From a bacterium (GTDB lineage Bacteria > Patescibacteriota > Minisyncoccia > Phycocordibacterales > Phycocordibacteraceae), in assembly GCA_037200965.1 (NCBI GenBank), contig JBBCGK010000001.1, positions 672,001 to 736,000 of the forward strand: 64,000 bases of DNA, read 5' to 3'. The notes beneath the pieces are model-generated. The model saw nothing but the letters and a program-made list of their open reading frames with translations. It searched no databases and had not been told where the DNA came from. The first letter of the stretch is position 1, and each line of letters begins with the position of its first letter. Below, one piece after another: positions 4,669-57,296 of this stretch. A program made the translations under genes and the position numbers.

Positions 4669-4779
4669 AGCCTCCGGTCAAGGACTCGGTTCGCACGCAG
4701 GTACGGCCCCACGCAATTCGGCGTGGGGTCTTTTGGATATATTCGACGCCGCCGGATATATATATAGTGTCCTTCCCGT

Positions 4780-7892: not shown

Positions 7893-7899
7893 CATTTCC

Positions 7900-34648: not shown

Positions 34649-34684
34649 TTTCTTCGAGCAGGATTTGAAGTTCTTAAGACAGAT

Positions 34685-35191
34685 TTACTTCAAAATAAAT
34701 TCCTCCCGCAACAGCGCATAGCCGACAGCATCGACGTATTCTCCCGTCTCGCGGTTTTCCCATTCCTTCTTGTGTCGCGCTTCCTGTCGGAAGCCGAGGG
34801 ACTCGAATACTTTTCGCATAGCGGCGTTATCCTCCCTGGTCGTCGCGTATATCCTGCGGATTTTATCGTAGCGGCCGAAGATGTAGGCAATGCCTTCTTT
34901 AAGCAGCTTCGTTCCGACTCCTTTCCCGCGCGCGTCTTTGTCTACGCAGAGAGTAAACGAAGGCGCGTCGCTGCCGGAGTTCTTTATGTTATCGAAATGG
35001 ATGAATCCGAGCAGCTTGCTTTCGTCGTAGCATACGAGCGTCTGAGCCGTCTCGCTTGAGAAATAATTCTCATCCCGGATTGCAAGGCCCCGTTCGTCGA
35101 TTATCGGATCCAGAAAATACTCCCAGCGATTCGAAGTCAGGAGATGATGAATGGCAGGAAGATCTCCGGGTCTGAAAAGATGTATTTCCAT
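34685..35191 (-). CDS. GNAT family N-acetyltransferase
   Basis: CVDKDARGKGVGTKLL acetyl-CoA-binding motif. Confidence 0.8.
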   Translation of the reverse strand: MEIHLFRPGDLPAIHHLLTSNRWEYFLDPIIDERGLAIRDENYFSSETAQTLVCYDESKLLGFIHFDNIKNSGSDAPSFTLCVDKDARGKGVGTKLLKEGIAYIFGRYDKIRRIYATTREDNAAMRKVFESLGFRQEARHKKEWENRETGEYVDAVGYALLREEFILK

Positions 35192-35364
35192 GGAATAAAT
35201 AGTACCACTTCCCGCTTCTAGAAAGCGCTACGCTTTTCTCCCTCGACGATCATTACACTTCTTGTCCATCGTGGACTCTTGGTGGGGAAGGCGTGAATAA
35301 AAACCAATCCCCCTCCTTAAGTGAGAGAGCTTTTCCTAATCTAAAGGCGAGATATACTAGACGC

Positions 35365-35820
35365 ATGACAACGCAACAGTATTCAATCCGCATCAACGCG
35401 CCGAAGGAAAAGGTTTGGAACACAATGCTCGGTCAGGACACGTATCGGGAATGGACGAGCGCCTTTAACGAAGGCGGACGTTTTGAGGGCAGCTGGGACC
35501 AGGGTTCCAAGATTCTTTTCCTTGGACCGGATCCTCTGACCGGAAAGGAGGGGGGTATGGTTTCCCGCATCAGGGAGAACAGACCGTATGAGTTCATCTC
35601 TATCGAGCACCTCGGTATTATGAAAGACGGTGTCGAAGATACGACGAGCGAAGAGGCAAAAAAGTGGGCTCCTGCATACGAAAACTATACTTTCACCGAA
35701 AAGGACGGTGTCACCGAAGTGTCCGTAGATATCGACATCGCTGAGGAGTTTGCCGATATGTTTAAAGAGGCGTGGCCGAAGGGTCTTGCAAAGCTTAAAG
35801 AAATCTCCGAAAAGCCCTAG
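35365..35820 (+). CDS. SRPBCC-fold protein (AHSA1/activator of Hsp90 ATPase-like)
   Basis: ~150 aa; pattern typical of the SRPBCC ligand-binding fold. The start is set at the internal MTTQQYS. Confidence 0.5.
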   Translation: MTTQQYSIRINAPKEKVWNTMLGQDTYREWTSAFNEGGRFEGSWDQGSKILFLGPDPLTGKEGGMVSRIRENRPYEFISIEHLGIMKDGVEDTTSEEAKKWAPAYENYTFTEKDGVTEVSVDIDIAEEFADMFKEAWPKGLAKLKEISEKP

Positions 35821-35838
35821 GTATGTATCTCTAAAAGA

Positions 35839-35864
35839 AAACAGCCCGCTTAGGTGGGCTGTTT
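35839..35864 (+). terminator. intrinsic terminator (AAACAGCCC gcttaggt GGGCTGTTT, then TCT)
   Basis: 9-bp stem followed by a U-run, 20 nt after the stop. Confidence 0.55.
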
Positions 35865-35868
35865 TCTA

Positions 35869-36022
35869 TCTAGCGGGATTGGTTATCCCAGGGTTAGAAC
35901 CTCGCTGATGCAAAGAAACTTCTATATTTCCTAAGTGGTAGGCATAATGAGTACACAAAAGCCAATACGTGCCTACAGGGTACCCAGAATTAGGTCGAGA
36001 GGTTAAAACCTCCTCCTACAGA
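35869..36022. repeat. copy 1 of a ~150-bp repeated structured element
   Basis: Shares with copy 2 (38788-38985) the blocks CTAGCGGG, AGAACCTCGCTGAT, ATATTTCCT, a ~50-nt block AATGAGyAyACAAAAGCCAATACGTGCyTAyAGGGTrCCCArAAyTAGG, and GGTTArAACCTCC. It also contains the internal hairpin GTAGGCA...TGCCTAC. Confidence 0.8.
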
Positions 36023-37309
36023 TTAGGATGCAATTACCTTGTAGATTCGGTTATCAGCCACTGTGTCCGTGTTCTCTAGGTCAACCATTTCAAATACATA
36101 GCCATACTCCTTGAGTGAGTCTTCGAGCAGTGCCAGCGCGTCTTTGTCCTTATTTGAGAAACCGATATAGACCACGCCGTTTGGCGCAAGATATTCCTTT
36201 GTATTCTTAAGAAACTTAACCAGTACGCTATCTTCGTTACTCTGCGTCTTGAATGCATGGGCAAGGCTTGTATCCGTCTTCTTAACCTTCTCATTATGGA
36301 AGGGCGGATTGAAGAAGATGATATCGAAGTGATTTTTATAGATTGAAGGTATTTTTTCGAATAGATTGCTCTCGAAAGCCACCCCCTTATCTTTTTGAGG
36401 AGAATTCTCAAGGTTGTATTTAGCGTTCTGAACGGCAGTTGAATTGATATCGCTCATCACCACTTCTTTTGCGCCTACATCAAGCGCCACGAGGCCCATC
36501 GCTCCATGACCACATGCAATATCGAGAACTTTCTTATCCTTCGATACTCCACGAACAAGCTTCGCGAACAGTTTTGAGGAACGGAATCGATTAGAAGGAT
36601 AGACGCCAGGGAAGACGGTCATTACGAGCTTCTCGAACAGGATTTTATAGTTGCTCGTGTTTTTGAGTACATGCTTATAGATCTCATTCGAGGTGAGAGC
36701 CGGATAGTATATCGGCGGGTAATAGTTTTTCTTTACAAGAGCGTCGAGGTACTTCAGCACGATGGAAGCCGCTTCCTCGCCATCCTTTGCATAGAAGAGG
36801 GGAGTGGAATCAGGATGCATCAAGCCTTCTGCGGCGAATGAGTCTATAAGCGCCTTGTATCGAGTGAAGTAATCACCCACAAGAACAATAGGCTTATTGA
36901 TTTCTCCAAGAATATTCAATATATGGATCTCTAGAATTTCGTGGAATGTACCTACTGCTCCCGGTAGCGCGATGAATGCATCCCCAAGCTCGATAAGTCT
37001 GCGCTGGCGCTCGTAGTGATCCGCATATCCTTCATAATCGGAGAAATAGGGACTTGGCTTAGAATCGCGATTTCCAAGGGCAACGCCAAACAGGTTGCCG
37101 CCTGCTTCCACCGTAGCCTTTGCTACCACGTCCATGAGGCCAGAAGGGCGTCCGCCGTTATTAATGCCGTATCCAGCCTCGCTTATAAGCCGAGCCACGG
37201 CCTTGGCGTCATGAAGATAAGACTCGTTCGTAGTTTCCATGCCGCTGGAGAATATGGTCACGCGAGGCGTATATCCCGCCTCGGTTTTCTTGCTCGGCAT
37301 ATTTGTCAT
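36023..37309 (-). CDS. fusion protein: LOG-family (TIGR00730, lysine-decarboxylase-like) nucleotide-binding N-domain plus an NPPF-motif small-domain SAM methyltransferase (RsmC/HemK-like) C-domain
   Basis: N-terminus TIFSSG...GINNGGRPSGLMDVVAKATVEAGGNLFGVAL...ALPGAVGTFHEILE gives the LOG signature. C-terminus VLDIACGHGAMGL...DIIFFNPPFH carries MTase motifs I and IV (NPPF). AT-rich. Confidence 0.6.
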   Translation of the reverse strand: MTNMPSKKTEAGYTPRVTIFSSGMETTNESYLHDAKAVARLISEAGYGINNGGRPSGLMDVVAKATVEAGGNLFGVALGNRDSKPSPYFSDYEGYADHYERQRRLIELGDAFIALPGAVGTFHEILEIHILNILGEINKPIVLVGDYFTRYKALIDSFAAEGLMHPDSTPLFYAKDGEEAASIVLKYLDALVKKNYYPPIYYPALTSNEIYKHVLKNTSNYKILFEKLVMTVFPGVYPSNRFRSSKLFAKLVRGVSKDKKVLDIACGHGAMGLVALDVGAKEVVMSDINSTAVQNAKYNLENSPQKDKGVAFESNLFEKIPSIYKNHFDIIFFNPPFHNEKVKKTDTSLAHAFKTQSNEDSVLVKFLKNTKEYLAPNGVVYIGFSNKDKDALALLEDSLKEYGYVFEMVDLENTDTVADNRIYKVIAS

Positions 37310-37397
37310 ATGCGAGAAGTATTGTATAAATGCTATTCACTGTCAAGTGATGTCAGACAGTACTTGACAACAAGTCAGGCAGGAATATACTGACCAT

Positions 37398-38159
37398 ATG
37401 GAACTCAACAAATCCCTTGAAGCTTTGGGCTTCTCATCAAAGGAGATTCAGGTTTATTTGGCGGTGATAAAGCTCGGTAAGACTACTCCAGCCGAAGTGG
37501 CGAAGATTACGAAAATCGGCCGCCCCACGGTCTATAATCTTGTTAAGAGTCTTATATCGAAGGGTGTGATAGCGGAGGATAAGGCCGATGCTGTGCTGCA
37601 CATCGTCGCACTGCCTCCCGAAGGCCTCCGAGCTACTATCGAACGGTCCAAGGTCGAGCTTTCAAAGAAAGAAGAACTTGTTGATGCGGCTATCGAAGAG
37701 CTTGGACTCATCCACTCAGGCGAGACCTATCCGGTGCCGCGCCTCCGTTTCGTGGAGGAGAACGAGCTACACGATTACCTTTTTCAGAATGCGGTTAAGT
37801 GGAATGAAAGCGTCCTCTCTAAGGACGGAATCTGGTACGGCTTCCAAGACCATAGTTTCGTAGAGAATTATGGAGATTGGATTGATTGGACGGTAAAGAA
37901 ACTCAAGGGAACGAAGTACAAGGTTCAACTATTCAGCAACGCTTCGAAAATTGAGGAACAGTTAGAAGGGAAGATCCCAGAGCGCTCAATCAAGTTCCTA
38001 AAGAGCTCTCGCTTTACGGCAACTACCTGGGTGGTAGGGGATTACCTCGTGATGATCTCAACCTCGAAGGCCCCGTTCTATTTGGTGGAGATTCACGATG
38101 CTCTTATGGCAGAGAATATGCGCGAAGTGTTTAAGAATATGTGGGAGATAAATAAATAA
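37398..38159 (+). CDS. TrmB-family transcriptional regulator
   Basis: The N-terminus ALGFSSKEIQVYLAVIKLGKTTPAEVAKITKIGRPTVYNLVKSLISKGV is a typical TrmB winged helix. Confidence 0.65.
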   Translation: MELNKSLEALGFSSKEIQVYLAVIKLGKTTPAEVAKITKIGRPTVYNLVKSLISKGVIAEDKADAVLHIVALPPEGLRATIERSKVELSKKEELVDAAIEELGLIHSGETYPVPRLRFVEENELHDYLFQNAVKWNESVLSKDGIWYGFQDHSFVENYGDWIDWTVKKLKGTKYKVQLFSNASKIEEQLEGKIPERSIKFLKSSRFTATTWVVGDYLVMISTSKAPFYLVEIHDALMAENMREVFKNMWEINK

Positions 38160-38164
38160 GAATT

Positions 38165-38725
38165 ATGGATCGATACCTTGATCAGTGGGCGCGAATTAAC
38201 CGCTGGCATAGAAAAGTCAATACTTTTTATGAAGGAGAGAGAAGTGTTCTTGAGGATAATGAAAGATTGGATATGGTCCGAACTTTTTTCATAGAATGCT
38301 TTCATTTAAAGGATTGGATCAAAGCTGACTTTCCGAATCTTTCAGTAGCTACCGAAAGAATATTTGATCGAGTAGAAGGCGAGGAATGTTTCAAAATTTG
38401 TGCAGACCTAGCGAATGCATCGAAACACGTGGATCTTAATAAGGCAGTCAGAAAAGATAAAGAAACTAAAATCGGTACTCAAGGAATTACAATCATGGTT
38501 GATCCTATTAAATGGGATTCAGACCCGAAGGATTATTTGCCGCCCGTGTGTAAATACCGATGGGACATCATAGCGTCAAGGAAGAAGTTTGATGTAAAAG
38601 AGCTAGCCGATGAGTGTATTGAGAGTTGGAAGAAGTTTATGCGCAAGAATGGACTATCTATAGAGATTGTTGCTCGATTGTCCATTCCAATAGATGGAAC
38701 ATCTTTTGATGCCAAAGCGTCTTAG
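38165..38725 (+). CDS. hypothetical protein (186 aa), AT-rich
   Basis: Starts 5 nt after the TrmB stop; no recognisable domain. Confidence 0.45.
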   Translation: MDRYLDQWARINRWHRKVNTFYEGERSVLEDNERLDMVRTFFIECFHLKDWIKADFPNLSVATERIFDRVEGEECFKICADLANASKHVDLNKAVRKDKETKIGTQGITIMVDPIKWDSDPKDYLPPVCKYRWDIIASRKKFDVKELADECIESWKKFMRKNGLSIEIVARLSIPIDGTSFDAKAS

Positions 38726-38787
38726 TACCGAAAGTAACAGTGATACTCCAGTCGTTTAAGAGATTACGGGAGAGGTGGAGGAAAGTT

Positions 38788-38985
38788 CCTAGCGGGTGCT
38801 TTTATGAAACTAGGTGGAATTGGATATCCGAGATAAGAACCTCGCTGATACTAAACAGCTCCTCATATTTCCTTCGTGTAGTGGATGACTGGGTATCAAA
38901 ATGAGCATACAAAAGCCAATACGTGCTTATAGGGTGCCCAAAACTAGGCGGAGGGGTTAGAACCTCCCATATTTTGGTAGTATTA
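38788..38985. repeat. copy 2 of the ~150-bp repeated element
   Basis: See copy 1; ~80 percent identity over the conserved blocks. Confidence 0.8.
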
Positions 38986-38990
38986 TCTAC

Positions 38991-39497
38991 ATGAAGATCG
39001 AATGGCTCGGAAAACGAATAGCAGTGGTTGGAGTAAGCGCATCAGGAAAATCAACTTTTGCGCGCAGACTTGCTACTAAGACTGGTCTGCCCCTGACGCA
39101 CATTGATGCCGTGATGTGGAAGCCGGGATGGGATTATATTGGCGATGAAGAAACAGTCCGCCAGCTCAAAGAAATCAGCAAGCAGGATGAATGGATCATC
39201 GAAGGATTCATCGATAAGAATGCTCTCGAAGCAGTTCTGACTCGTGCCGAATCAATAATCTATCTCGACTATCCGCGATACATACCTGCGTGGAGATACA
39301 TAAAACGATGGTTTAAGCATCGAAAGAATCCGCGCCCAGAATTGGAGGGCAGTCCAGAGAAATTCAGCTTTGAATTTCTGAAGCGGGTATGGGATAAGAA
39401 GGAAGTCTATCGGCTAAACGAATTTATTAAGAAAATGCCTGATACAAGCAAGATTCTGAGGCTCAAGTTGCCGAAGGAAGCAAATACTTTTCTATGA
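38991..39497 (+). CDS. P-loop NTPase/kinase (AAA_33 / topology-modulation-like)
   Basis: IAVVGVSASGKSTFARRLA Walker A; ~170 aa small kinase fold. Confidence 0.55.
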   Translation: MKIEWLGKRIAVVGVSASGKSTFARRLATKTGLPLTHIDAVMWKPGWDYIGDEETVRQLKEISKQDEWIIEGFIDKNALEAVLTRAESIIYLDYPRYIPAWRYIKRWFKHRKNPRPELEGSPEKFSFEFLKRVWDKKEVYRLNEFIKKMPDTSKILRLKLPKEANTFL

Positions 39498-39509
39498 GAG
39501 TAGTTACAT

Positions 39510-40028
39510 ATGGCTAGACTTATTATTCTCAATGGACCTCCTGGTGTAGGCAAATCTACGATTGCTGCACGTCTGCATAAGGATATTTCAAATTCGATAC
39601 TTCTGGATATAGATGAGATTCGTCGCTCCATTCCAAATTATAAAGAGCAACGTAAGGAAAGTCTGATTCTGGCGTATCAGGAGGCAATGCGGACCATAGA
39701 AGACTGTTTAGCTAAAGATCAGACCGTTATTATAGATAAGGTTGTTTCGGACTCAGATACACTCGATTCTTTTGTTGAGGCAGGGAATAAACAGGGTGTC
39801 GTAATAAATGAGATTCTCCTATTTGCAGACAAGGAATCAGTACAGAAGCGAGCAGACGAGCGTGGTTACAAACCAGGAAGTTTACTTACCCGTGAGCGAG
39901 TAGGAGACATGTGGGATCAAGTGAGTGTACTCAGAAGAAGTAGGAATAACGCTGTTGTTATGGATACGACTCATTTAAATCTTGAAGAAGTGTACAAAAA
40001 TGTAAGAGGAATAATCGGGCAAGTATAA
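39510..40028 (+). CDS. P-loop NTPase/kinase (AAA_33 / zeta-toxin-like fold)
   Basis: IILNGPPGVGKSTIAARL Walker A; ~170 aa. Confidence 0.55.
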   Translation: MARLIILNGPPGVGKSTIAARLHKDISNSILLDIDEIRRSIPNYKEQRKESLILAYQEAMRTIEDCLAKDQTVIIDKVVSDSDTLDSFVEAGNKQGVVINEILLFADKESVQKRADERGYKPGSLLTRERVGDMWDQVSVLRRSRNNAVVMDTTHLNLEEVYKNVRGIIGQV

Positions 40029-40154
40029 CCCGCCGGTAGGGGTGGAAGAGAAGTCCGGAATTTCTGAGAAGTTTCTGCAGAAAGTTAGAACCCCCAATCT
40101 GTTAAGACGCGCCAACACGAATGGTTACTTAACTCGGCCTTTCGTGAAATGATG

Positions 40155-40566
40155 TGGAGGTGGGGAGGTTGAACTCCCGTCCGACCTGCGCTTGAGAGCG
40201 AGTCTACGGCGCGTAGTTCCGATTAGGGTTTAAGAGAGGATGCGAGGAAACGGAACGAAACCATTCCCCTCCGATCCCGTTATCTAAGCCGCGGGCCGGG
40301 AGAGCCGCGAACCGATCGCACAGAAGATTCCGCCCGCTGGCCCGGCTGTGCGCACCCGGGACCAGGGACGTCGCTTAGGCGAGGTGAGCCGAAGCTCGAA
40401 CCTTATGCGTAAGCGAACGCGAAGTTCCCTGCGGTAAAGTAAGGAGACTTCACGCCTACAACAGTTTTGTTTGCAGGTAGAGTTTCCCGCCAGATTAAAG
40501 TGATGGGCGGGAGTGCACTGCGCCGCACGTCTCTCAAGGTACAGGCCGTCAAAGCCGGTCACCCCC
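40155..40566 (-). ncRNA. ssrA: tmRNA (ssrA)
   Basis: The minus strand begins GGGGGUGACCGGCUUUGACGG, matching the tmRNA 5' consensus GGGGxUGAxxxGGxUUCGACGG. It ends GGACGGGAGUUCAACCUCCCCACCUCCA, matching E. coli ...GGACGCGGGUUCAACUCCCGCCAGCUCCA. The acceptor stem GGGGGUG/CACCUCC pairs. An internal ORF GCA AAC AAA ... GCA UAA encodes the tag ANKTVVGVKSPYFTAGNFAFAYA. It lies directly downstream of smpB. Confidence 0.7.
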
Positions 40567-40604: not shown

Positions 40605-41048
40605 TTACCGATTCTTCAGTATACGTTCGGCGTCGCGTTTCGCGTCCTTTTTCTTGAGATCCTCCCGTTTGTCCTTCTTCCCCTTGCCGCGGACGATCGC
40701 AACGCGCGCCTTGATATACCGCTTACTACTATACACCGAAAGTGGCACTACTGTCAATCCCTTCTTCGATTCGGCATCGGCCAGTTGCGCTAGTTCGGGC
40801 TTCGTCATAAGAAGACGGCGGTTGCGTTCCGGATCGTAGCTCTCCGGAGTGTTCTTGGCCTGATAGGGAGGGATGGTTGCGCCGACCAGATAGGCTTCTC
40901 CGCCGCGGACGAGCACCCGCGCTCCTTCGAGGCTCCCGAGCTTCCCGCGAAGCGCCTTCGCCTCGCCGCCCGAGAGCTCGAGGCCCGCATCGAATGTCTC
41001 AATGATCTCGTATTTGAGGCCCGCTTTTTTGTTTTCGATAAGATTCAT
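40605..41048 (-). CDS. smpB: SsrA-binding protein SmpB
   Basis: 147 aa; KYEIIETFDAGLELSGGEAKALR...GKGKKDKRED; canonical SmpB. Confidence 0.9.
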   Translation of the reverse strand: MNLIENKKAGLKYEIIETFDAGLELSGGEAKALRGKLGSLEGARVLVRGGEAYLVGATIPPYQAKNTPESYDPERNRRLLMTKPELAQLADAESKKGLTVVPLSVYSSKRYIKARVAIVRGKGKKDKREDLKKKDAKRDAERILKNR

Positions 41049-41878
41049 GTCGTGAGAAGGTCGAGAATCTCTTCGCGCCTTGCCATGACGTCATCGTAGC
41101 CCATGTAGAACGCTTCGGCGACCTTATGCGGATCGCGCGTCGTAAGGCCGACGGGAAGCGGCCGCGAGGGCGAGAGGTGAAGTCCCCGCACGCTGTTCGG
41201 GAGAACGGGGGTGTCGATGCGGTCCGTGTAATCGAGAAGCACGCCTTCAAGCGGCTCGCGCTGCCAGTACGCGTAGAGCCGGAAGAGCAGCTTCGCCCAC
41301 CGTTTCTTCGGCGTGAGATTGGTGATGAGCAGAATGCGCGTCGCGCCTTCCGCAACAGCCTTCTCAATGAGGGCCTGGGTGCCAAGCCCGATGCCGCCGT
41401 CCATATATAGATGGCTCCCGAGAGCTATGTGCCGGTGATAAAACAGCGGAATCGCCATCGCGGCGCGGAGCACCTCGTGGGGATCGAGCCAAGTATCGTT
41501 TCCGATAAAGCGCGTCGCCCCGCTTGCCTCGTCGGTCACGGGGACGAAATAACGCGACGGCGAGCGCGCGAGGCGGTCCGTATCGAGCGGAATGTACTGC
41601 TTGATAACCGTGTCGACCAGATAGTCGACATTGAACCTCGGGAAAGGGAAGTAGCGGATAAAGTTAGGGGAAGGAATGAATTTTATCCATGCCCGCTCGC
41701 CCTCATCGTACTGGCCGGAGAGATAGTACATGAGGGATCCCGTGCTTCCCGAGGAAGCGAGCGCTATGTCTGGCGCGCCAAGTCCGAGTTCTTTCCCGAG
41801 TGCGGTCAGTGCGCCCGCGGCATACGCGCACTTCATGCCTCCGCCGGAGGCGATAACCGCGGTTTTCTCCTCGCGCAT
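41045..41878 (-). CDS. patatin-like phospholipase
   Basis: Oxyanion hole GGGMKCAYAAG and GxSxG nucleophile (ASSGSTG); overlaps the smpB start by 4 nt. Confidence 0.75.
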   Translation of the reverse strand: MREEKTAVIASGGGMKCAYAAGALTALGKELGLGAPDIALASSGSTGSLMYYLSGQYDEGERAWIKFIPSPNFIRYFPFPRFNVDYLVDTVIKQYIPLDTDRLARSPSRYFVPVTDEASGATRFIGNDTWLDPHEVLRAAMAIPLFYHRHIALGSHLYMDGGIGLGTQALIEKAVAEGATRILLITNLTPKKRWAKLLFRLYAYWQREPLEGVLLDYTDRIDTPVLPNSVRGLHLSPSRPLPVGLTTRDPHKVAEAFYMGYDDVMARREEILDLLTT

Positions 41879-41918
41879 CCTTTCGAGATTAGCAGATTTT
41901 CGGTATACTGACAGTCTT

Positions 41919-43868
41919 ATGCCGCTTCCGTTTCAAACGCCGGGCAGGAATAAGAAAAACAGGAAACAGAAAACGCCCGTGAAGCGCTCGTATTTCGGCC
42001 TGCCTCCCACCTCCTTCACCGGCAATCTCGTCACGACCGTTCTCATCTTCCTGCTTCTCACGAGTGCGTACTCGCTCTTCGTGGGCCTGAGTTCGAGTCC
42101 CGAGAGCGTATCGCTCTCGCAGGTCGCGAAAGACGTCGAAGCGGGTTCTATAACCGCGATCAAGGTCGCAGGCGACAGCCTGAAGCTCACGTATACCGAC
42201 GAAAGCGAGAAAGTCTCGACCAAGGACCCCGCCGCGGGCCTTCCGGAGACGCTCGCGACCTACGGCGTAACGCCCGAGCAGCTGCGGAGCGTTGCTATTA
42301 CCGTCACGGGACAAAGCGGCTGGCGCTTCTGGCTCCTCACGCTCCTGCCGCTTCTCCTCCCGGTCATCTTCCTCGGGTTCCTGTTCTGGTTCCTTTCACG
42401 GCAGGTGAAAGGCGCGGGCATGCAGGCCTTCACGTTCGGGCAGAGCAAGGCGCGCATGACGGACCCGGCCGACATGAGCCAGCGCGTCACGTTCGCGGAT
42501 GTCGCCGGGGCGAAGGAAGCGAAGGAGGAGCTTATGGAAATCGTGGACTTCCTTAAGAATCCGAAGAAGTTCCTCGACATCGGCGCGAGAATTCCTAAGG
42601 GCATTCTTCTCATGGGCGCGCCGGGTACCGGGAAGACTCTCCTCGCCCGTGCCGTCGCGGGCGAGGCGGGCGTACCGTTCTTCTCGATTTCCGGCTCCGA
42701 GTTCGTCGAGATGTTCGTCGGCGTGGGCGCGTCCCGCGTGCGCGACCTTTTCCAGATGGCGAAGCGCGCGGCGCCCGCGATCATTTTCGTCGACGAGATC
42801 GACGCGGTCGGGCGCGTCCGCGGCACCGGAGTCGGAGGCGGAAATGACGAGCGTGAGCAGACCCTGAACCAGATTCTCGTCGAGATGGACGGTTTTGAGC
42901 CGACGGAAAAGGTGATCGTTATGGCGGCAAGCAACCGCCCCGACGTGCTTGATCCCGCGCTTCTTCGCCCGGGCCGTTTCGACCGACGCGTCACCATCGA
43001 TCTTCCGGACCGCAAGGATCGCGAAGAGATACTTAAGATCCACGCACGCAAGAAGCCGTTCGGTCCTGACGTAACCCTTCCGGTCATCGCCGAGCGCACG
43101 CCGGGCTTCTCCGGCGCCGAGCTCTACAGCCTCATGAACGAGGCGGCCATCCTCGCGGCCCGCGAGAACCGTACCGAAATCACCCAGTACGACCTCATCC
43201 GCTCGATCGAGAAGGTGATGCTCGGTCCCGAGCGCAAGTCCCATATTTTGAGTAACAAAGAAAAGAAGCTTACGGCATACCATGAGGCCGGGCACGCGCT
43301 TGTCTCATCGGTCCTCGAGCACGCCGACCCGGTGCACAAGATTTCCATCATCAGCCGCGGGCGGGCGGCGGGCTATACGCTCAAGCTTCCGTTCGAGGAC
43401 AAGAAGATGTACTCGAAGAAGGCGTTCCTCGACGATATCGCCGCGACCCTTGGCGGCTACGTGGCGGAAGAGATGATCTATGACGACGTGACCACGGGAC
43501 CCTCGAACGATCTCCAGGTTATCACCGCGCTTGCGCGCGACATGGTGTCCCGCTACGGCATGTCCGATTCCATCGGGCCCGTCGCATTCGCGTCCGACCG
43601 CGACATGCAGGGAGACCGGTATTCGCAGGAAATCGCCGCGAAGATAGACGGCGAAGTGTCGCGCATCATCGAGGAAGGGAAAGAGCGCGCGAAGAAAGTA
43701 CTCACCGAACACCGGAAGGCGCTCGACGCCATAACGGATCGCCTGGTCGAAGTCGAGACTATCGAGCGCGAGGAGTTCGAGAAAATACTTATCGCGAGCG
43801 GCATCACGCCGAAGAAGAAGGACGAGGAAGGGGTCGTCATCGCTCCAGTCGCGCCGCGCGTGGACTAG
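41919..43868 (+). CDS. ftsH: ATP-dependent zinc metalloprotease FtsH
   Basis: Walker [12 protein letters not shown] region, HEAGHA zinc motif; N-terminal TM helices. Confidence 0.95.
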
Positions 43869-43920
43869 TGTTTTCATAGGAAAAGGAGAAGTTCCGGGCG
43901 CGCATGCGCGCTGGGCGCAA

Positions 43921-44376
43921 GTGCGCGTGCGTGCGGCGAAGGATATCGGCACGCTGAGCGCTCGGGACATGTTCATCGCGGGGCTGTTCCTGTATTGGGG
44001 AGAAGGCACGAAGACCTCGCCCACCGAGACATCCGTCTCGAACAATGACCCTGCCATGATTCGTTTCTTCATGGAGTGGCTTATCTTAGAAGGAGTGCCA
44101 AAGAACCGTCTGCGCGTCCATCTGCACTTCTATTCGGACATGGACATCAGAAAGGAATTACGCTACTGGTCAAAGCAGCTCGATCTGCCGTTGAGTGCGT
44201 TTCGCAACGCCTTACATCAAGGAAGCGAAACGCAGCGCTCTCTCATACCCGCAACGCTTCACACACGGCACCTGCAACCTCCTCTATCACAATCGCGACG
44301 TATCCGAATACGTCCACCAATCGCTCGATCACCTCCGGTTGAGGTTTGCCGATACCAAAGAGGTATGATTGCATAG
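43921..44376 (+). CDS. hypothetical protein (weak call)
   Basis: ORF lying between ftsH and the tRNA; no RBS and no recognisable domain. Confidence 0.25.
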   Translation: MRVRAAKDIGTLSARDMFIAGLFLYWGEGTKTSPTETSVSNNDPAMIRFFMEWLILEGVPKNRLRVHLHFYSDMDIRKELRYWSKQLDLPLSAFRNALHQGSETQRSLIPATLHTRHLQPPLSQSRRIRIRPPIARSPPVEVCRYQRGMIA

Positions 44377-44383
44377 TCATATA

Positions 44384-44455
44384 CCACCCATAGCTCAATG
44401 GTAGAGCGATCGACTTATATTCGATTGGCTCCAGGTTCGAGTCCTGGTGGGTGGA
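44384..44455 (+). tRNA. tRNA-Ile with anticodon UAU (reads AUA)
   Basis: Manually folded: acceptor CCACCCA/TGGGTGG, D-arm GCTC-AATGGTA-GAGC, anticodon stem ATCGA/TCGAT with loop CTTATAT (U33, anticodon TAT, A37), T-arm CCAGG-TTCGAGT-CCTGG, discriminator A. 72 nt. Confidence 0.6.
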
Positions 44456-45280
44456 CTACCGAGGGAATATATCAACGAGTTCGCCCGAACTATAAAAGTC
44501 CGCGGCAAGACCGCCGAAGCTATACGAAACACCGAGAATATCGATGGCCGCGCCGCCTACCTGCGGATTCGCGTTCGGGGTCGAATGCGCGAAGCCGATG
44601 TTGTAAAGCGTCGAGACGACCGCGGGGTTTCCTTCGATAGGGAAGCCCGCCTTCCTCCACTGCGCTTCCACCTCCTTTATATAGAGTCCCGCATAGAGAT
44701 AGCTCCAATAGTGGTCGTGCTGGTCGGTCATGCGCGCGAAGCGTTCGCTTTCTACGTCGGTCGTCCGGAAGTCGAGCGCGTGCCCGAACTCAGGCCCCGG
44801 ATAGTACGGCGAGGCCGGATCCTTCAGATTATTCTCCACTTGGATCGCCGTGTCTTCTTTCATCCCCATCACGCCCCAGGAAAACTGTGTCTGAGAACCC
44901 AGGATCTTGAGCGGATAGAAGAATTGCTTATAAAACTCCCGTTCCGTGAAGAAAAGCCGCAGCTGTTCGGCGACCAAATTCGCGGCGATGAGCCGCGCGG
45001 GAACGCCCGAGTCGGCAGCCGCCCGGTCGAGCGCCGCGGTATCTTTCCGAAGCGCCGCCTCGAGCACCTGCCATTCTTCGGTCTTCTGCCAGGGCGTGCC
45101 ACGCGGATCGCTAGGCGCGAAGTCGGTCGATGTCGCGGAACCGATGAACGCTTCGCGCTGGAGGTCGACGATGCCGCTCGTGTTGGTGAGTCCGAACCGG
45201 ACCGCGAAGTATCCGACGACGAGGAAGAAGCCGATCGCGGCGAATATATAAATGACGATCGAGACGACTTTCTTAAGCAT
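44456..45280 (-). CDS. hypothetical membrane-anchored protein (274 aa)
   Basis: N-terminal TM (VVSIVIYIFAAIGFFLVVGYFAV) followed by a large soluble domain. Confidence 0.5.
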   Translation of the reverse strand: MLKKVVSIVIYIFAAIGFFLVVGYFAVRFGLTNTSGIVDLQREAFIGSATSTDFAPSDPRGTPWQKTEEWQVLEAALRKDTAALDRAAADSGVPARLIAANLVAEQLRLFFTEREFYKQFFYPLKILGSQTQFSWGVMGMKEDTAIQVENNLKDPASPYYPGPEFGHALDFRTTDVESERFARMTDQHDHYWSYLYAGLYIKEVEAQWRKAGFPIEGNPAVVSTLYNIGFAHSTPNANPQVGGAAIDILGVSYSFGGLAADFYSSGELVDIFPR

Positions 45281-45827: not shown

Positions 45828-47993
45828 TCATTCCCGATGCACGTCTTCGCCTGCCTGCCTCGCAAGCGCCGCGAGAAGGGGATAGCGCCTGAGTTCGGGA
45901 TCTTTTTGTACCAGGAGCGCCGCTTCCTTTTTCGCGGCTTCGACCAATTTTATATTCTTAAGCGCTTCCATGGCGATGTCGGAGACGCCCCACTGTCTCC
46001 CGCCGATAAGTTCCCCGGCGCCGCGAAGCGCAAGATCGTACTCGGCGAGCTCGAAGCCGTTTTTTGCCGTCACGAGCGCCTTGAGGCGGTCGCGGGTCGC
46101 GGGGCCATAGCGCTCGGGAAGCGCGAAGCAATAGGCCTGATGCGTCGAACGGATCACGCGGCCGCGAAGCTGATGGAGCTGGGCAAGCCCGAAGCGCTCC
46201 GCGCCCTCGATGAGTATCACGGTCGCGTTCGGTACGTTCACGCCCACTTCGACCACGCTCGTCGCGACGAGGATGCCGGTCTCACCCCGCTCGAAGCTCC
46301 CCATCACCGTCTCTTTTTCCTTCGGCGTCATCTTGCTGTGGAGGACGCCGATACTCGCCTCGGGAAACACTTCCTTCTTGAGCCGCTCGGCTTCCGCCTT
46401 GACCGACTTGGCCTGGAGCGCCATTTCTTTTGCCGGATCGGGCTCGTGTATGCGCGGGCATATTACGTACGCTTGGCGGCCTGCCGCGAGTTCCTTTCGT
46501 ACGCGCTCGTATGCCTGCTCGCGCTTCTCGGGCCCGAGCACTTCGGTCGCGACGGGCTTTCTTCCAAGCGGCATCTGGTCAAGAAGCGAAAGGTCGAGGT
46601 CGCCGTATATGGTGAGGGCCAAAGTGCGAGGGATCGGGGTCGCGGTCATCGAAAGGAGATGTGGGGAGAGCCCGTCCTTGCGGGCCAGTCTTTGCCGGTG
46701 CACTTTCCCGAAGCGGTGCTGCTCGTCGATGATCGCGTACGCGAGCGTACTGAACTCAAGGGACTTCTGTATGATCGCGTGCGTGCCGATTACGATCGGT
46801 ATCTCGCCGTTCGCGACCCATTTGCGGAACTGCGCGCGCGAAATCGGCGTCGATTCTTCCTTGCGGATCTTCGAGGGAAACTTGCGGCACTCGCTTCCCG
46901 TCAGAAGCCCGATCGCGATCGGATGGTCTTTAAAGTATGAGATGAACGTGGAGAAATGCTGCTTCGCGAGGATTTCCGTGGGGCACATGTACGCGATCTG
47001 GAGCGTGCCCGCTTTTCTTCCCGGCGGGCGCGACGTCGCGACAAGATACGCGGTCGCCGCGGCGACCGCAGTCTTGCCGCTTCCGACGTCCCCTTCAAGA
47101 AGACGCATCATCGGATGCGGCTTCTCAAAGTCCGAAACGATGGTCTCGATGGCGGCAAGCTGCGCTTTGGTCGGGGGGAAGGGGAAGGAAGATACGAAGC
47201 CCGCGAGTTTTCCGCGGTCGACCGTGACCGGAAGCGCTTTCTCCCTTGAAGCCTCCGCCCTTCGCTTATACATCGCGAGCTGAAGCGCGAAGACTTCCTC
47301 GAAGGCGAAGCGCTTCCGCGCCGCTTCCGCGTTCGCGCGCGTCTTTGGCGCGTGCATCCATACGAGCGCCGTCCCGAGCGTCGGCAGGTTGTATCGCCTG
47401 AGCATCTCCCGCGGCAAGGGGTCTTCGATCGTCTCGTGTATGCCGGTTTCGAATACGCGCTTGAGGGAATGGAAGAACCAGAGCGAAGACACTCCCTTGC
47501 TCTCGGGATAGACGGGATAGAGCTGTTCGCCTTCGGGAAGTGCGCCGTTTGAGAACAGCGTGTCGTGTATTTCATCCGGACTTACGGGCGACCGGTCGAT
47601 GTCCGGATTCGCCACGTACGGCTTCTCATTGGTGCCCGCCGTGCGGCCCGTGACTTTCACGACCATGCCGTCGTGAAGCGTTTTCGCGATATAGGGCTGG
47701 GAAAACCACATGAGCTTGATGCGCCCCGACGCGTCCTCAAGCCACGCCTCCGCGATCGGCCTGCGGCTTTTCCATGTTTTCCGCACGTCGGGCTTCCGGA
47801 TCGTGCCATAGAGCGTAACGTCGGTCCCCGGAGCGACCGCGGTTACGGTGCCGGTCGGGCCCGCGGCTTCATAGCGCTGGGGGAAATGATAGAGCAGGTC
47901 GCGCACCGTGCGGATGCCGAGCTTCCCGAGCGCCTTCTTCTGGTCGGGCTTGAGGCGCGTGAAGTGCTTTTCTAGGGGGTCCTCCGGTGTCAT
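45828..47993 (-). CDS. recG: ATP-dependent DNA helicase RecG
   Basis: 721 aa; wedge domain, then helicase motifs (GDVGSGKT, DEQHRFG, the TATPIPRT arginine-finger region). Confidence 0.9.
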   Translation of the reverse strand: MTPEDPLEKHFTRLKPDQKKALGKLGIRTVRDLLYHFPQRYEAAGPTGTVTAVAPGTDVTLYGTIRKPDVRKTWKSRRPIAEAWLEDASGRIKLMWFSQPYIAKTLHDGMVVKVTGRTAGTNEKPYVANPDIDRSPVSPDEIHDTLFSNGALPEGEQLYPVYPESKGVSSLWFFHSLKRVFETGIHETIEDPLPREMLRRYNLPTLGTALVWMHAPKTRANAEAARKRFAFEEVFALQLAMYKRRAEASREKALPVTVDRGKLAGFVSSFPFPPTKAQLAAIETIVSDFEKPHPMMRLLEGDVGSGKTAVAAATAYLVATSRPPGRKAGTLQIAYMCPTEILAKQHFSTFISYFKDHPIAIGLLTGSECRKFPSKIRKEESTPISRAQFRKWVANGEIPIVIGTHAIIQKSLEFSTLAYAIIDEQHRFGKVHRQRLARKDGLSPHLLSMTATPIPRTLALTIYGDLDLSLLDQMPLGRKPVATEVLGPEKREQAYERVRKELAAGRQAYVICPRIHEPDPAKEMALQAKSVKAEAERLKKEVFPEASIGVLHSKMTPKEKETVMGSFERGETGILVATSVVEVGVNVPNATVILIEGAERFGLAQLHQLRGRVIRSTHQAYCFALPERYGPATRDRLKALVTAKNGFELAEYDLALRGAGELIGGRQWGVSDIAMEALKNIKLVEAAKKEAALLVQKDPELRRYPLLAALARQAGEDVHRE

Positions 47994-54011: not shown

Positions 54012-54101
54012 GGAGACGTGGCTGAGTGGTCGAAAGTACCTCACTGCTAACGAGGCAGGGATTAACGTCCCTCGAGGGTTCGAATCCCTCCGTCTCCGCC
54101 A
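54012..54101 (+). tRNA. tRNA-Ser(GCU), class II with a long variable arm and an encoded CCA
   Basis: GGAGACG acceptor, GCTGAGTGGTCGAAAGT D-arm, anticodon loop CTGCTAA, long variable arm, GGGTTCGAATCCC T-arm, CGTCTCC-G-CCA. Confidence 0.85.
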
Positions 54102-54155
54102 GATGTCCAAATTCGAACCCAAGCAGAATAAGGGTATTTGGACTAAGATAATGAC

Positions 54156-55250
54156 ATGGCAACCAAAACGGCAAATTCAGGTCTTCATCAGGCCAAAACT
54201 GCCAAAAAGGACGAGTTTTATACCCAACTCGTTGATATTGAAAAAGAGCTGAAACACTACAAGGACCAATTTCGTGGCAAGGTGATTTTTCTGAATTGTG
54301 ACGATCCGTACGAAAGCAACTTCTTCAAGTATTTCGCTGGTAATTTCAATGCTCTCGGATTAAAGCAGCTTATTGCCACGAGCTACAAGCGATCGCCTAT
54401 TGCCAACACCCAATTAGGACTCTTTACCGATGGTGAGGTAGTGTCCGCAACTAAAGGCCGCCCAAAAGTGACTGCCAACAAATTCGTTATTAACGAAGTT
54501 GATGACATAAATGGTGACGGTTCTTTTGACTTGCGTGATATTGCGGAGCAGCTTAAAGCTAATAAAAATAACGAATGGACTCCATTAGACGGCGAAGGAG
54601 ATTTTCGGAGTCCGGAGAGCGTAGAACTGCTCAAGCAAGCTGATATTGTGGTGACAAACCCGCCCTTCTCGCTTTTCGGCGAGTATATTGATCAACTTGT
54701 TCAATACCAGAAAAAGTTTCTGATATTAGGAAATCAGAACGCTATTAAATATAAAAATGTCTTCAAGCTTATAAAGGAGAATAGGATGTGGCTAGGCTAT
54801 GACAATGGAGGAACGAAATGGTTCCAGGTGCCGGATGACTATGATATACAAACCGAATCAAGAATCAAAATAGAAAACGGTGTGAAATATTTTAGTATGG
54901 GCAGCATTGTGTGGTTTACAAATCTTGACACAACGAAGCGTCACATAGATTTCACAATGTACAAAAAATACAAACCCGAAGCATATTCAAAGTACGATAA
55001 TTACGACGCGATCGAGGTTTCTAGGGTGGTAGAAATACCAATGGACTATGGCGGCGAAATGGGAGTTCCGATTACCTTTTTAGATAAATATAATCCTGAC
55101 CAATTTGAGATTATTGATCTGCTAAACCGATACACCTTGTTTGACTCTCAGCAAACGAACGAAGATGTCAGACGAAGGCACTCCCACACTTGTAATATCA
55201 ATGGCAAGGCCGTATTTTCTCGAATTTTAATAAAGAACAAGCAAATTTGA
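54156..55250 (+). CDS. N6-adenine DNA methyltransferase of the EcoRI-methylase family
   Basis: N-terminal KKDEFYTQLVDIEKELKHYKDQFRGKVIFLNCDDPYESNFFKYFA is typical of the EcoRI_methylase family; catalytic IVVTNPPFS motif. AT-rich. Confidence 0.65.
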   Translation: MATKTANSGLHQAKTAKKDEFYTQLVDIEKELKHYKDQFRGKVIFLNCDDPYESNFFKYFAGNFNALGLKQLIATSYKRSPIANTQLGLFTDGEVVSATKGRPKVTANKFVINEVDDINGDGSFDLRDIAEQLKANKNNEWTPLDGEGDFRSPESVELLKQADIVVTNPPFSLFGEYIDQLVQYQKKFLILGNQNAIKYKNVFKLIKENRMWLGYDNGGTKWFQVPDDYDIQTESRIKIENGVKYFSMGSIVWFTNLDTTKRHIDFTMYKKYKPEAYSKYDNYDAIEVSRVVEIPMDYGGEMGVPITFLDKYNPDQFEIIDLLNRYTLFDSQQTNEDVRRRHSHTCNINGKAVFSRILIKNKQI

Positions 55251-56362: not shown

Positions 56363-56997
56363 TAATGAAACAAGGAGATCTCCATATCTGGGTAAGAAAA
56401 TTACTCCAACAGCTTCGTACCCAAACCGATTCAAAAGAAGATTTATATACAAATATTCTTCTCTGGGCACACGATAAGCAAGAGTCTGGATTCTCATGGG
56501 AGGAAATGAGATCAAAGTTCTCACTGAATGCAGAACAAGAACATTGGGTTAGGAATATTTTCCTAACTACTTCAGATGGAGATAGGAAATTCTTTGAACA
56601 TTTACGGAACGATGATTCCGTATCACCGAATATTTATTACTACGCTTTAAATGAAAAAGGGATCACAGCGGCAATAAACTACAAGGGCTTGCGACATGCT
56701 GAAAAGAGCAGCACCCAAGCGTTATGGGTCGCAAGTATATCTATTTTTCTGGCAGCTATCGGTTTGTTTTTTACAGTTAAACAAACGAATTTGGCCGAGA
56801 CCCAAAGTATCTCGGAAAGGATAAATCAAGCAAGGAGTATACAATCAGCGCTTGAATTCTGTCAGCAGAATCCTGATTCTCAAGATTCTGGTCTCTATGA
56901 GATCTCGACTGGTAAATCTGCTTCATGTCCTCAAGTAGTGCGTAACTATTCCTCTACCTCCTCACTGTTGGATAGAATCAAAAGTCTGTTTAAGTAA
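56359..56997 (+). CDS. hypothetical protein with one central TM helix; third gene of the operon
   Basis: Its start overlaps the previous stop (ATGA), and the AT-rich composition matches the two upstream genes. Confidence 0.4.
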   Translation: MIMKQGDLHIWVRKLLQQLRTQTDSKEDLYTNILLWAHDKQESGFSWEEMRSKFSLNAEQEHWVRNIFLTTSDGDRKFFEHLRNDDSVSPNIYYYALNEKGITAAINYKGLRHAEKSSTQALWVASISIFLAAIGLFFTVKQTNLAETQSISERINQARSIQSALEFCQQNPDSQDSGLYEISTGKSASCPQVVRNYSSTSSLLDRIKSLFK

Positions 56998-57260
56998 CTG
57001 GAGAATTCGGATTTATTCTATTGAATAATCGATCGCACTCTTTCTTTTAGACGATTTAGGCTGTGGCACCTCAAACCACTCCGGATGAGCTTTATATATA
57101 GCCCTCAATTCCTGTATACTTTTATCAAGTTTCCCGAAGGTAAGCCGTGTTTTTGGTTCGAATTTCGGGACACCGCCTCCGCATCTAACAGCTAGCACCA
57201 GGAACCTCGGGTCTAGCTGGTGTCTAAAAACATCCGGTACTTTCTCTTACTTGTTCAATA

Positions 57261-57296
57261 TAAAAAGGACGGGCCGGAACTGTAGAAGTTCCGGCC
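57261..57296 (-). terminator. intrinsic terminator on the minus strand (GGGCCGGAAC tgtagaa GTTCCGGCCC; the A-run on plus gives a U-run on minus)
   Basis: 10-bp perfect stem with a flanking A5. Confidence 0.45.

What the first reader, a model, noticed from the sequence alone, without database searches (positions are those of the whole stretch)
44384..44455. tRNA with anticodon UAU (tRNA-Ile2 type), rare in bacteria
A manual fold gives a canonical cloverleaf with anticodon loop CUUAUAU. Most bacteria read AUA with a lysidine-modified CAU tRNA made by TilS. A genomically encoded UAU anticodon is known only from a few lineages (some Mollicutes and scattered others), and it implies a different AUA-decoding strategy. 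It fits the atypical-lineage signals elsewhere in the window.
Basis: partly seen in the sequence, partly recalled or inferred. Interest (0 to 1): 0.6.

Follow-up and report, generated by a model that had tools for sequence, protein, structure and literature searches.

The report
Isoleucine tRNA with UAU anticodon (CPR)
This is a genuine gene for an isoleucine tRNA that reads the AUA codon directly through a UAU anticodon; textbooks call this design rare in bacteria, but here it belongs to a conserved family found across many uncultured Candidate Phyla Radiation bacteria, usually sitting just after the ftsH gene.

Summary
ARAGORN and Rfam both call a tRNA at 44384-44455(+), with anticodon UAU and loop CUUAUAU.

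The window comes from a Candidate Phyla Radiation (Patescibacteria) genome, probably Paceibacteria/Kaiserbacteria-like.

The tRNA is not a one-off. More than 120 species genomes, almost all labelled CPR, carry the same tRNA type. In 35 of 36 relatives chosen through FtsH alone, a tRNA(UAU) lies within 5 kb downstream of ftsH. Stems covary strongly, and A73, A37 and C32 are invariant.

AUA is an ordinary codon here, at 12.5 per 1000 codons. It is more frequent than AUU in a 59% GC genome. It aligns with Ile/Val/Leu in orthologues, not Met.

No tilS was found in the window, in 0.9 Mb of tRNA-bearing loci, or in 0.74 Mb of ftsH loci. At least one CPR bacterium, the saccharibacterium Southlakia, keeps tilS directly upstream of ftsH and has no tRNA annotated at the UAU gene's usual site. 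CPR therefore holds both strategies. Absence of tilS from this whole genome could not be tested.

A LAGLIDADG-like gene family sits immediately upstream of this tRNA in many relatives. The window holds a decayed copy.

Verdict: a real new member of a known kind. The lineage-wide pattern looks under-reported.

The parts
44384..44455 (+). tRNA-Ile(UAU) gene. Acceptor stem C1-G72...A7-U66, 7-nt D loop, anticodon loop CUUAUAU, 5-nt variable loop, discriminator A73, no encoded CCA.
   Evidence: ARAGORN; Rfam 73.1 bits; sequence; covariation in relatives.
44416..44418 (+). Anticodon T-A-T (U34 A35 U36), flanked by C32 and U33 on the 5' side and A37 and U38 on the 3' side.
   Evidence: Sequence. The loop is CUUAUAC in 47 and CUUAUAU in 6 of 53 unique tRNAs from FtsH-selected relatives.
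41730..43868 (+). ftsH (AAA + peptidase M41), same strand as the tRNA, ending 516 nt upstream of it. The true start is probably downstream of 41730, because the ORF overlaps the divergent patatin gene and relatives' FtsH proteins are ~650-660 aa.
   Evidence: Pfam. ftsH lies directly upstream on the same strand in 61 of the pattern-selected loci. tRNA(UAU) lies within 5 kb 3' of ftsH in 35/36 FtsH-selected loci.
43843..44347 (+). Decayed copy (pseudogene) of a ~224-aa CPR gene family: an N-terminal HTH plus a LAGLIDADG-like domain carrying the motif LYWGEGxK. The window copy lacks residues 1-47 and has a frameshift near 44201.
44456..45280 (-). Conserved hypothetical gene (274 aa), convergent with the tRNA. 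Its stop codon abuts the tRNA 3' end.
   Evidence: ORF list. It is a called gene in same-species contig L001. A 277-aa gene occupies the same position in L213. No Pfam or PHROG match.
45828..47993 (-). recG helicase, the conserved downstream neighbour.
   Evidence: Pfam. Downstream on the opposite strand in 31 loci.
40605..41048 (-). smpB, a conserved upstream neighbour of ftsH. The tmRNA gene lies next to it at 40152-40566(-), and a patatin-like gene at 41045-41878(-).
   Evidence: Pfam; Rfam/ARAGORN. smpB is upstream in 25 loci and 7 upstream ORFs match the SmpB Pfam family.

Best explanation
This is a functional chromosomal gene for the minor isoleucine tRNA of a CPR/Patescibacteria bacterium. 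The anticodon UAU is encoded in the genome, so the tRNA pairs directly with AUA.

Shown:
- It is a bona fide tRNA.
- It belongs to a family conserved, with compensatory stem changes, across many CPR lineages.
- It occupies a conserved site 3' of ftsH.
- AUA is a frequently used codon in this genome.
- AUA occupies Ile-type alignment columns.

Inferred:
- It is transcribed from the ftsH side. It is on the same strand, and no sigma-70-like promoter was found in the 700 nt upstream.
- It is trimmed and receives CCA post-transcriptionally, since no CCA is encoded.
- It carries t6A at A37.
- It is charged by an IleRS that tolerates U34 and a pyrimidine at position 38.

My best guess, at about 60%, is that it is the only AUA decoder in this genome, so that it replaces the TilS/lysidine + tRNA-Ile2(CAU) system. 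That would match Mycoplasma mobile, Bifidobacterium and Neorickettsia.

How AUG misreading by U34 is avoided is unknown. It could be a ribosome property with unmodified U34, as in M. mobile. It could be an unidentified U34 modification. The invariant C32 with a pyrimidine at 38 may also weaken the loop.
For: - tRNA calls.
- Family: 113 unique sequences from 118 loci. Every unconstrained stem pair is at least 93% paired and carries 3 or more standard pair types. A73 is present in 113/113 although the search pattern did not force it.
- Independent FtsH-selected sample: 55 of 80 loci carry tRNA(UAU), and 35 of 36 where at least 5 kb downstream is available. All loops are CUUAUAY. Covariation is 99.5% paired, with 17 of 21 pairs compensatory.
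- E. coli-type IleRS elements present in the sequence: A73, A37, U12-A23, C4-G69, C29-G41 (the element list is from my own knowledge of Nureki et al. 1994).
- Codon usage: AUA is 12.5 per 1000 codons in 35 supported genes. A/(A+T) at the third position is 0.61 for Ile, against 0.53 for Val and 0.54 for Ala, so AUA is not avoided. In 139 ftsH genes, AUA runs from 8 to 21 per 1000 across all GC3 classes.
- Meaning of AUA: columns holding AUA contain I 0.43, V 0.20, L 0.13, M 0.03, like AUU and AUC and unlike AUG (M 0.48).
- TilS: no hit by tblastn, by the SGGxDS motif or by a 3-sequence HMM in the window, its flanks, the 0.9 Mb of tRNA-bearing loci, or the 0.74 Mb of ftsH loci. No PF01171 appears among the 25 families shown (of 53 matched) for 76 ORFs upstream of ftsH.
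- Contrast case: Southlakia (Saccharibacteria) has tilS immediately upstream of ftsH, MviN downstream of it, three tRNA-Met genes and one tRNA-Ile.
Against: - Absence of tilS and of a third CAU tRNA from the whole ~0.96 Mb genome was not testable. Only 64 kb plus about 10 kb of flanks could be read.
- tilS exists in at least one CPR lineage, so loss is not a CPR-wide given.
- Some bacteria (Lactobacillus casei/plantarum, Cyanothece, Ferrimonas) carry both tilS and a tRNA-Ile(TAT) gene (PMC3575796).
- Expression, aminoacylation and the state of U34 are untested.
- U38 departs from the A38 element of E. coli tRNA-Ile.
- The IleRS of this organism was not found.
Confidence: 0.8

Rival explanations
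1. Redundant decoder. The genome also encodes TilS and a tRNA-Ile2(CAU) elsewhere, and the UAU tRNA only supplements lysidine-based AUA reading. This is what has been proposed for Lactobacillus casei/plantarum.
For: Co-occurrence is documented in other bacteria (PMC3575796). A CPR bacterium has tilS. Only about 7% of this genome was visible.
Against: No tilS at the ftsH locus, where Southlakia and, from my own knowledge, many other bacteria keep it. This held in the 47 tRNA-bearing loci that include sequence upstream of ftsH and in the 80 FtsH-selected loci. Southlakia, which has tilS, has MviN rather than a tRNA after ftsH, which suggests the two are alternatives.
Confidence: 0.3
2. Mobile or foreign tRNA. 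The gene was brought in by a phage, an island or a homing element, and is dispensable or decaying.
For: A LAGLIDADG-like selfish-looking gene is tightly coupled to the 5' side of this tRNA in many relatives. The window holds low-GC islands next to the tmRNA gene and next to tRNA-Ser.
Against: The local GC content (0.57) is like the genome's. The synteny smpB-ftsH-tRNA-recG is conserved across distant CPR lineages. The cloverleaf is perfect and covaries. Phage records match at no more than 81% identity, and those matches are annotated tRNA-Arg. AUA is heavily used in essential genes.
Confidence: 0.04
3. Not an isoleucine tRNA. AUA is reassigned, for example to Met, or the tRNA is charged by another synthetase.
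For: None directly. U38 and C1-G72 are unusual for a bacterial tRNA-Ile.
Against: AUA columns in FtsH and RecG alignments have the same residue profile as AUU and AUC, with Met at only 3%. A73, A37, U12-A23 and C4-G69 are all present.
Confidence: 0.02

Closest known systems
Mycoplasma mobile tRNA-Ile2(UAU) system (Taniguchi et al. 2013, PMC3575796)
   Same: A genomically encoded UAU anticodon reads AUA. No tilS was found near the gene. The genome is small and reduced.
   Different: M. mobile is AT-rich, whereas this genome is 59% GC yet uses AUA at 12.5 per 1000 codons. In M. mobile the unmodified U34, the Arg865 of IleRS and ribosome-level rejection of AUG were all shown experimentally; none of these is known here. 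In Mollicutes the trait is confined to a few species, whereas here it spans many CPR lineages and has a fixed genomic site.
Bifidobacterium / Neorickettsia tRNA-Ile(UAU) with eukaryote-type IleRS (PMC3575796)
   Same: tRNA-Ile(TAT) is present in bacteria that lack tilS. The one CPR IleRS for which I saw domain data (Southlakia SEML1_0180) lists no C-terminal zinc-finger domain, which may point to the non-IleRS1 type.
   Different: The IleRS type of this organism is unknown. The Southlakia IleRS belongs to a tilS-bearing CPR bacterium.
Canonical bacterial tRNA-Ile2(CAU) + TilS (lysidine), with the related ava2C and archaeal agmatidine systems
   Same: Same task: a dedicated minor tRNA for AUA.
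   Different: The anticodon is UAU, not CAU, so C34 modification is not needed. No tilS lies upstream of ftsH here. Southlakia and, from my own knowledge, many other bacteria keep tilS next to ftsH.
Lactobacillus casei/plantarum, Cyanothece, Ferrimonas: tRNA-Ile(TAT) coexisting with tilS (PMC3575796)
   Same: A bacterial tRNA-Ile(TAT) gene. The possibility of redundancy is not excluded here.
   Different: Those are sporadic single species. No conserved locus and no lineage-wide family has been described for them.
Eukaryotic cytosolic tRNA-Ile(UAU) (pseudouridine at 34 and 36)
   Same: A UAU anticodon dedicated to AUA.
   Different: The eukaryotic genes carry an intron that directs pseudouridylation (my own knowledge). 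There is no intron here.

Membership tests
tRNA (Rfam RF00005) | Cloverleaf with conserved U8, A14, G18G19, the T-loop UUCGA, and covarying stems | tested here: met
   73.1 bits against a gathering score of 29. ARAGORN call. 99.5% of cells paired and 17/21 pairs compensatory in 30 relatives.
Bacterial tRNA-Ile(UAU), the direct AUA decoder | Anticodon U34 A35 U36 encoded in the gene | tested here: met
   44416-44418 = TAT.
Bacterial tRNA-Ile(UAU), the direct AUA decoder | Isoleucine identity elements: A73, A37 (t6A site), U12-A23, C4-G69, C29-G41, A38 (E. coli set, from my own knowledge) | tested here: inconclusive
   A73, A37, U12-A23, C4-G69 and C29-G41 are present. Position 38 is U here, and C or U in all 53 unique tRNAs of the FtsH-selected sample, not A. 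Charging itself was not tested.
Bacterial tRNA-Ile(UAU), the direct AUA decoder | AUA codons are used and mean isoleucine | tested here: met
   12.5 per 1000 codons with no avoidance. The residue profile of AUA columns equals that of AUU and AUC.
TilS-independent AUA decoding (M. mobile type) | The genome lacks tilS and tRNA-Ile2(CAU) | not testable with these tools
   None in the window, its flanks, or 1.6 Mb of related loci.
TilS-independent AUA decoding (M. mobile type) | IleRS adapted to U34 (a basic residue at the E. coli W905 position, or the eukaryote-type enzyme) | not testable with these tools
   No IleRS in the window or in any fetched locus.
TilS-independent AUA decoding (M. mobile type) | Unmodified U34, with discrimination against AUG on the ribosome | not testable with these tools
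   Needs tRNA mass spectrometry and A-site binding assays.
Canonical tRNA-Ile2(CAU)/TilS system | CAU anticodon converted to lysidine by TilS | tested here: not met
   The anticodon is TAT. No TilS was detected nearby.
Phage- or island-borne tRNA | Flanked by integrase or phage genes, deviant composition, close phage homologues | tested here: not met
   The neighbours are ftsH and recG. GC is 0.57. The best phage match is 81% identical and annotated tRNA-Arg.
LAGLIDADG homing endonuclease (for the upstream ORF family, not the tRNA) | An alpha-beta-beta-alpha-beta-beta-alpha fold, with an acidic residue at the end of the LAGLIDADG helix | tested here: inconclusive

The most novel reading that the evidence does not exclude
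In a large part of the Candidate Phyla Radiation (Parcubacteria/Paceibacteria, ABY1 and Microgenomates-type lineages), the TilS/lysidine system has been replaced by a genomically encoded tRNA-Ile(UAU). The gene is fixed at the 3' side of ftsH, the same locus where tilS sits in Southlakia and, from my own knowledge, in many other bacteria. If so, direct UAU decoding of AUA would be common rather than exceptional among bacterial species, and TilS would not be near-universal. A LAGLIDADG-like gene that abuts the tRNA's 5' end may have helped spread or maintain the tRNA gene.
Probability: 0.4. Interest if true: 0.7.

Novelty: new member of a known kind. Interest (0 to 1): 0.5.

Why it matters
Reading AUA as Ile without misreading AUG is a classic decoding problem. 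The standard answer for bacteria is lysidine made by the 'essential, highly conserved' TilS, which has even been proposed as a drug target. Recent papers still call tRNA-Ile(UAU) a rare exception.

The data here show that this tRNA type is the rule in a very species-rich, uncultured part of the bacterial tree. It has a conserved genomic address next to ftsH, and AUA is used freely even at high GC.

If whole-genome surveys confirm that these genomes lack tilS, three things follow. The stated distribution of TilS needs revising. CPR bacteria become a natural system for asking how a U34 anticodon avoids AUG. The tilS-ftsH and ftsH-tRNA(UAU) arrangements would mark an evolutionary switch between the two solutions.

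Tried and rejected
- **Profile search for TilS.** I searched the 5.8-billion-protein collection with a TilS profile, hoping to find CPR TilS. The 120 listed hits were all enterobacterial or Aquificae relatives of the query sequences, so the search said nothing about CPR.
- **IleRS.** E. coli IleRS gave no tblastn hit in any fetched locus, so the IleRS type stayed unknown.
- **Source contig.** The look-up of encoding contigs never returned the 960-kb source contig. It returned only short same-species contigs, so walking along the genome was impossible. One look-up failed outright because of a wrong start codon.
- **Literature.** Searches combining lysidine, tilS or AUA with CPR, Patescibacteria, Parcubacteria or Saccharibacteria found nothing relevant.
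- **Phage origin.** Rejected.
- **Reassignment of AUA.** Rejected.
- **Classifying the ten CAU tRNAs.** I tried to sort the CAU tRNAs in the loci into initiator, elongator and Ile2 types. Only two sequence types were evident (CGCGGGG... and GGCAGGG...), and 8-kb fragments cannot show a complete tRNA set.
- **NCBI organism labels.** Some labels look unreliable and were not used for lineage claims. For example, L082 is labelled 'uncultured Candidatus Saccharibacteria', yet its FtsH is 77% identical to the window's. L038 is labelled Pseudomonadales, yet it carries the CPR-type ORF and tRNA.

Full report
**Observation**

ARAGORN finds three RNA genes in the window: a tmRNA (40154-40566, -), tRNA-Ser(GCU) (54012-54101, +) and tRNA-Ile with anticodon TAT at 44384-44456 (+). 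Rfam's tRNA model matches 44384-44455 end to end at 73.1 bits (gathering score 29, E=4e-14) with no non-canonical pair. Read directly, the gene is CCACCCA-UA-GCUC-AAUGGUA-GAGC-G-AUCGA-CUUAUAU-UCGAU-UGGCU-CCAGG-UUCGAGU-CCUGG-UGGGUGG-A. The anticodon occupies 44416-44418. A37 and A73 are present and no CCA is encoded.

**Where the window comes from**

Three window proteins occur with identical sequence in an NCBI MAG named only 'bacterium', on a 960,259-bp contig, and also in MAG GCA_015655515.1. The window opens with the ribosomal protein operon. There S5 (7269-7892) is followed directly by L15 (7900-8358) with no L30 gene. [quoted passage not shown] The FtsH and RecG proteins flanking the tRNA are 72-82% identical to those of MAGs labelled Paceibacterota, Kaiserbacteria and Patescibacteria group. 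GC content is about 59%.

**The tRNA belongs to a large family**

I scanned one genome per GTDB species for this tRNA's D arm, CTTATA and T arm, leaving all other stems free. The labels are almost all CPR. They include Kaiser-, Adler-, Nomura-, Taylor-, Uhr-, Vogel-, Lloyd-, Terry-, Niyogi-, Campbell-, Jorgensen-, Doudna-, Davies-, Levy- and Beckwithbacteria, Paceibacterota and many 'Saccharibacteria'.

The 113 unique sequences pair at 93-100% in every unconstrained stem position, with three or more standard pair types each. A73 is present in 113 of 113, although the pattern did not demand it.

A second sample was chosen only by similarity to the window's FtsH: 80 metagenome loci at 64-85% identity. 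It is independent of the tRNA pattern. A tRNA(UAU) is present in 55 of the 80, and in 35 of the 36 loci that hold at least 5 kb downstream of ftsH. It is always on the 3' side of ftsH, on the same strand in about two thirds of them and opposite in the rest. These tRNAs have several D-loop variants, so the first scan under-sampled the family. Their loops are CUUAUAC (47) or CUUAUAU (6). On 30 of them the cloverleaf is 99.5% paired, 17 of 21 pairs show compensatory changes, and no shuffle out of 500 does as well.

**Conserved address**

In the pattern-selected loci, ftsH lies directly upstream on the same strand in 61 cases, often less than 100 nt away. recG lies downstream on the opposite strand in 31, and smpB upstream in 25. 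The window shows the same order: tmRNA, smpB, patatin-like gene, ftsH, tRNA, a conserved hypothetical gene, recG.

**Codon evidence**

In 35 window genes backed by Pfam hits or orthologues (10,845 codons), AUA occurs 12.5 times per 1000. AUU occurs 7.9 and AUC 39.6 times per 1000. The share of A among A+T third positions is 0.61 for Ile, no lower than for Val (0.53) or Ala (0.54). AUA is therefore not avoided, although third-position GC in individual window genes is mostly 0.6-0.88. For comparison, a 2025 paper gives 0.6 per 1000 for Burkholderia cenocepacia and 4.9 for E. coli, and classes anything above 10 as high (PMC12514573). In 139 ftsH genes next to a tRNA(UAU), AUA runs from 21 per 1000 at low GC3 to 8 per 1000 at GC3 above 0.75.

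In alignments of FtsH and RecG orthologues, columns where one sequence has AUA hold I 0.43, V 0.20, L 0.13 and M 0.03 in the other sequences. That is the same profile as for AUU and AUC, and unlike AUG, where M is 0.48. AUA therefore means isoleucine.

**The TilS question**

None of three detection methods finds TilS. The methods were tblastn with E. coli TilS, the PP-loop motif SGGxDS, and an HMM built from the E. coli, Geobacillus and Aquifex catalytic domains. The sequence searched comprised the window, its flanking contigs, the 0.9 Mb of tRNA-bearing loci and the 0.74 Mb of ftsH loci. I also ran Pfam on 76 ORFs taken from loci that include the region upstream of ftsH. The 25 families shown, of 53 matched, include SmpB, metallo-beta-lactamase-fold proteins, GyrA and S1. 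PF01171 is not among them.

This matters because tilS commonly sits just upstream of ftsH in other bacteria. A gene table in the supplement of Wang et al. (bioRxiv 10.1101/2023.05.02.539146) shows that arrangement in a cultured CPR bacterium, the saccharibacterium Southlakia epibionticum. SEML1_0730 is TilS (PF01171, E=7e-45) and lies immediately upstream of SEML1_0729, FtsH. MviN, not a tRNA, follows ftsH. The table lists three tRNA-Met genes and a single tRNA-Ile.

CPR bacteria therefore hold both solutions, and at this locus they look like alternatives. Whether the window's own genome lacks tilS elsewhere could not be tested. I rate that at roughly 60%.

**Mechanism**

The shown and inferred steps are separated under the best explanation. 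The tRNA most likely shares a transcript with ftsH or with the remnant ORF. It is on the same strand, no sigma-70-like promoter was found in 43700-44384, and only a weak hairpin sits at the ftsH stop codon. The IleRS must accept U34 and a pyrimidine at position 38.

Southlakia has MnmA, TsaD and a TsaC-type enzyme but neither MnmE nor MnmG. If that holds for CPR in general, xm5U-type modification of U34 is unlikely. Unmodified U34 (the M. mobile solution) or an unknown modification would remain. The invariant C32 with C or U at 38 is a family signature that might tune loop strength. That last point is speculation.

**A coupled gene**

Between ftsH and the tRNA, the window carries a broken copy (43843-44347; N-terminus missing, one frameshift) of a ~224-aa family. 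The family has 1956 clusters in the protein collection. All named members are 'hypothetical protein' from CPR MAGs.

Copies of the gene end 0-80 nt before the tRNA-Ile(UAU) gene, or overlap it by 21 nt. They are on the same strand in 27 of 29 tblastn hits, a count that includes the decayed copies in the window and in L001. In 6 of 6 loci fetched through the protein itself, the tRNA starts 10-15 nt after the stop codon. Two of those six are loci where the pair lies 2.7 kb from ftsH. A distant paralogue precedes a tRNA(CAU) in a Beckwithbacteria genome.

**Comparison with the literature**

Bacterial tRNA-Ile(UAU) is an established kind. M. mobile has been characterised biochemically. Nine tilS-less species and a few species with both systems were listed in 2013 (PMC3575796), and 19 species in 2014 (PMC4013482). 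[quoted passage not shown] No paper in the searchable library combines lysidine, tilS or AUA with CPR names.

The gene itself is a new member of a known kind. Any tRNA scanner will have annotated it in public MAGs. What seems under-reported is its lineage-wide conservation, its fixed place beside ftsH, the free use of AUA at high GC, and the coupled LAGLIDADG-like gene.

**Verdict**

Interest is moderate at 0.5. It would rise to about 0.7 if genome-wide surveys show that tilS and tRNA(UAU) are mutually exclusive across CPR.

Noticed in passing
window 43843-44347 (+); intact copies e.g. L070:1860-2549(-), L210:4001-4681(+): A ~224-aa CPR gene family (N-terminal HTH plus a LAGLIDADG-like domain with the motif LYWGEGxK) whose stop codon lies 0-80 nt upstream of tRNA-Ile(UAU), on the same strand. 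The family has 1956 protein clusters, all unannotated. The window copy is a truncated, frameshifted pseudogene.
   Followed up: yes
window 7269-8358 (+): Ribosomal protein S5 is followed directly by L15 with a 7-nt gap and no L30 gene. This is a CPR hallmark.
   Followed up: partly
window ~1800-4700: The ribosomal protein operon is interrupted between L5 (1201-1761) and S14 (~5675-5944) by about four ORFs without Pfam matches, two of them on the opposite strand.
   Followed up: no
window 54012-58866: A low-GC (0.43-0.46) island starts right after tRNA-Ser(GCU). It holds an EcoRI-like methylase, a GmrSD/HNH nuclease and an rve-family integrase (57934-58866), so it is probably an integrated element at the tRNA.
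   Followed up: no
window 34000-40566: A low-GC (0.42-0.50) stretch lies next to the tmRNA gene. It holds zeta-toxin/AAA-like, TrmB-like and LOG-methyltransferase fusion genes. ARAGORN's tmRNA tag (GPAGGIFCAIGSRLSRPAA) is unusual, and the Rfam alignment shows large insertions.
   Followed up: no
window 41730-41878; L001:3294-5243: The ftsH ORF as listed overlaps the divergent patatin-like gene by ~150 nt, so its real start is probably further downstream. In the same-species MAG GCA_015655515.1, ftsH is split into two called genes, through either a frameshift or an assembly error.
   Followed up: no
L038, L082 and other loci: Several MAGs are labelled Gammaproteobacteria, Pseudomonadales or Saccharibacteria in NCBI but carry the CPR-type tRNA(UAU). 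L038 also has the CPR-specific ORF, and L082's FtsH is 77% identical to the window's. These organism labels look unreliable.
   Followed up: no
Southlakia epibionticum ML1 gene table (supplement of bioRxiv 10.1101/2023.05.02.539146): This cultured CPR bacterium has tilS directly upstream of ftsH and a tRNA-Met about 1 kb from tilS. It has MnmA but not MnmE or MnmG. Its 978-aa IleRS has no zinc-finger domain listed.
   Followed up: partly
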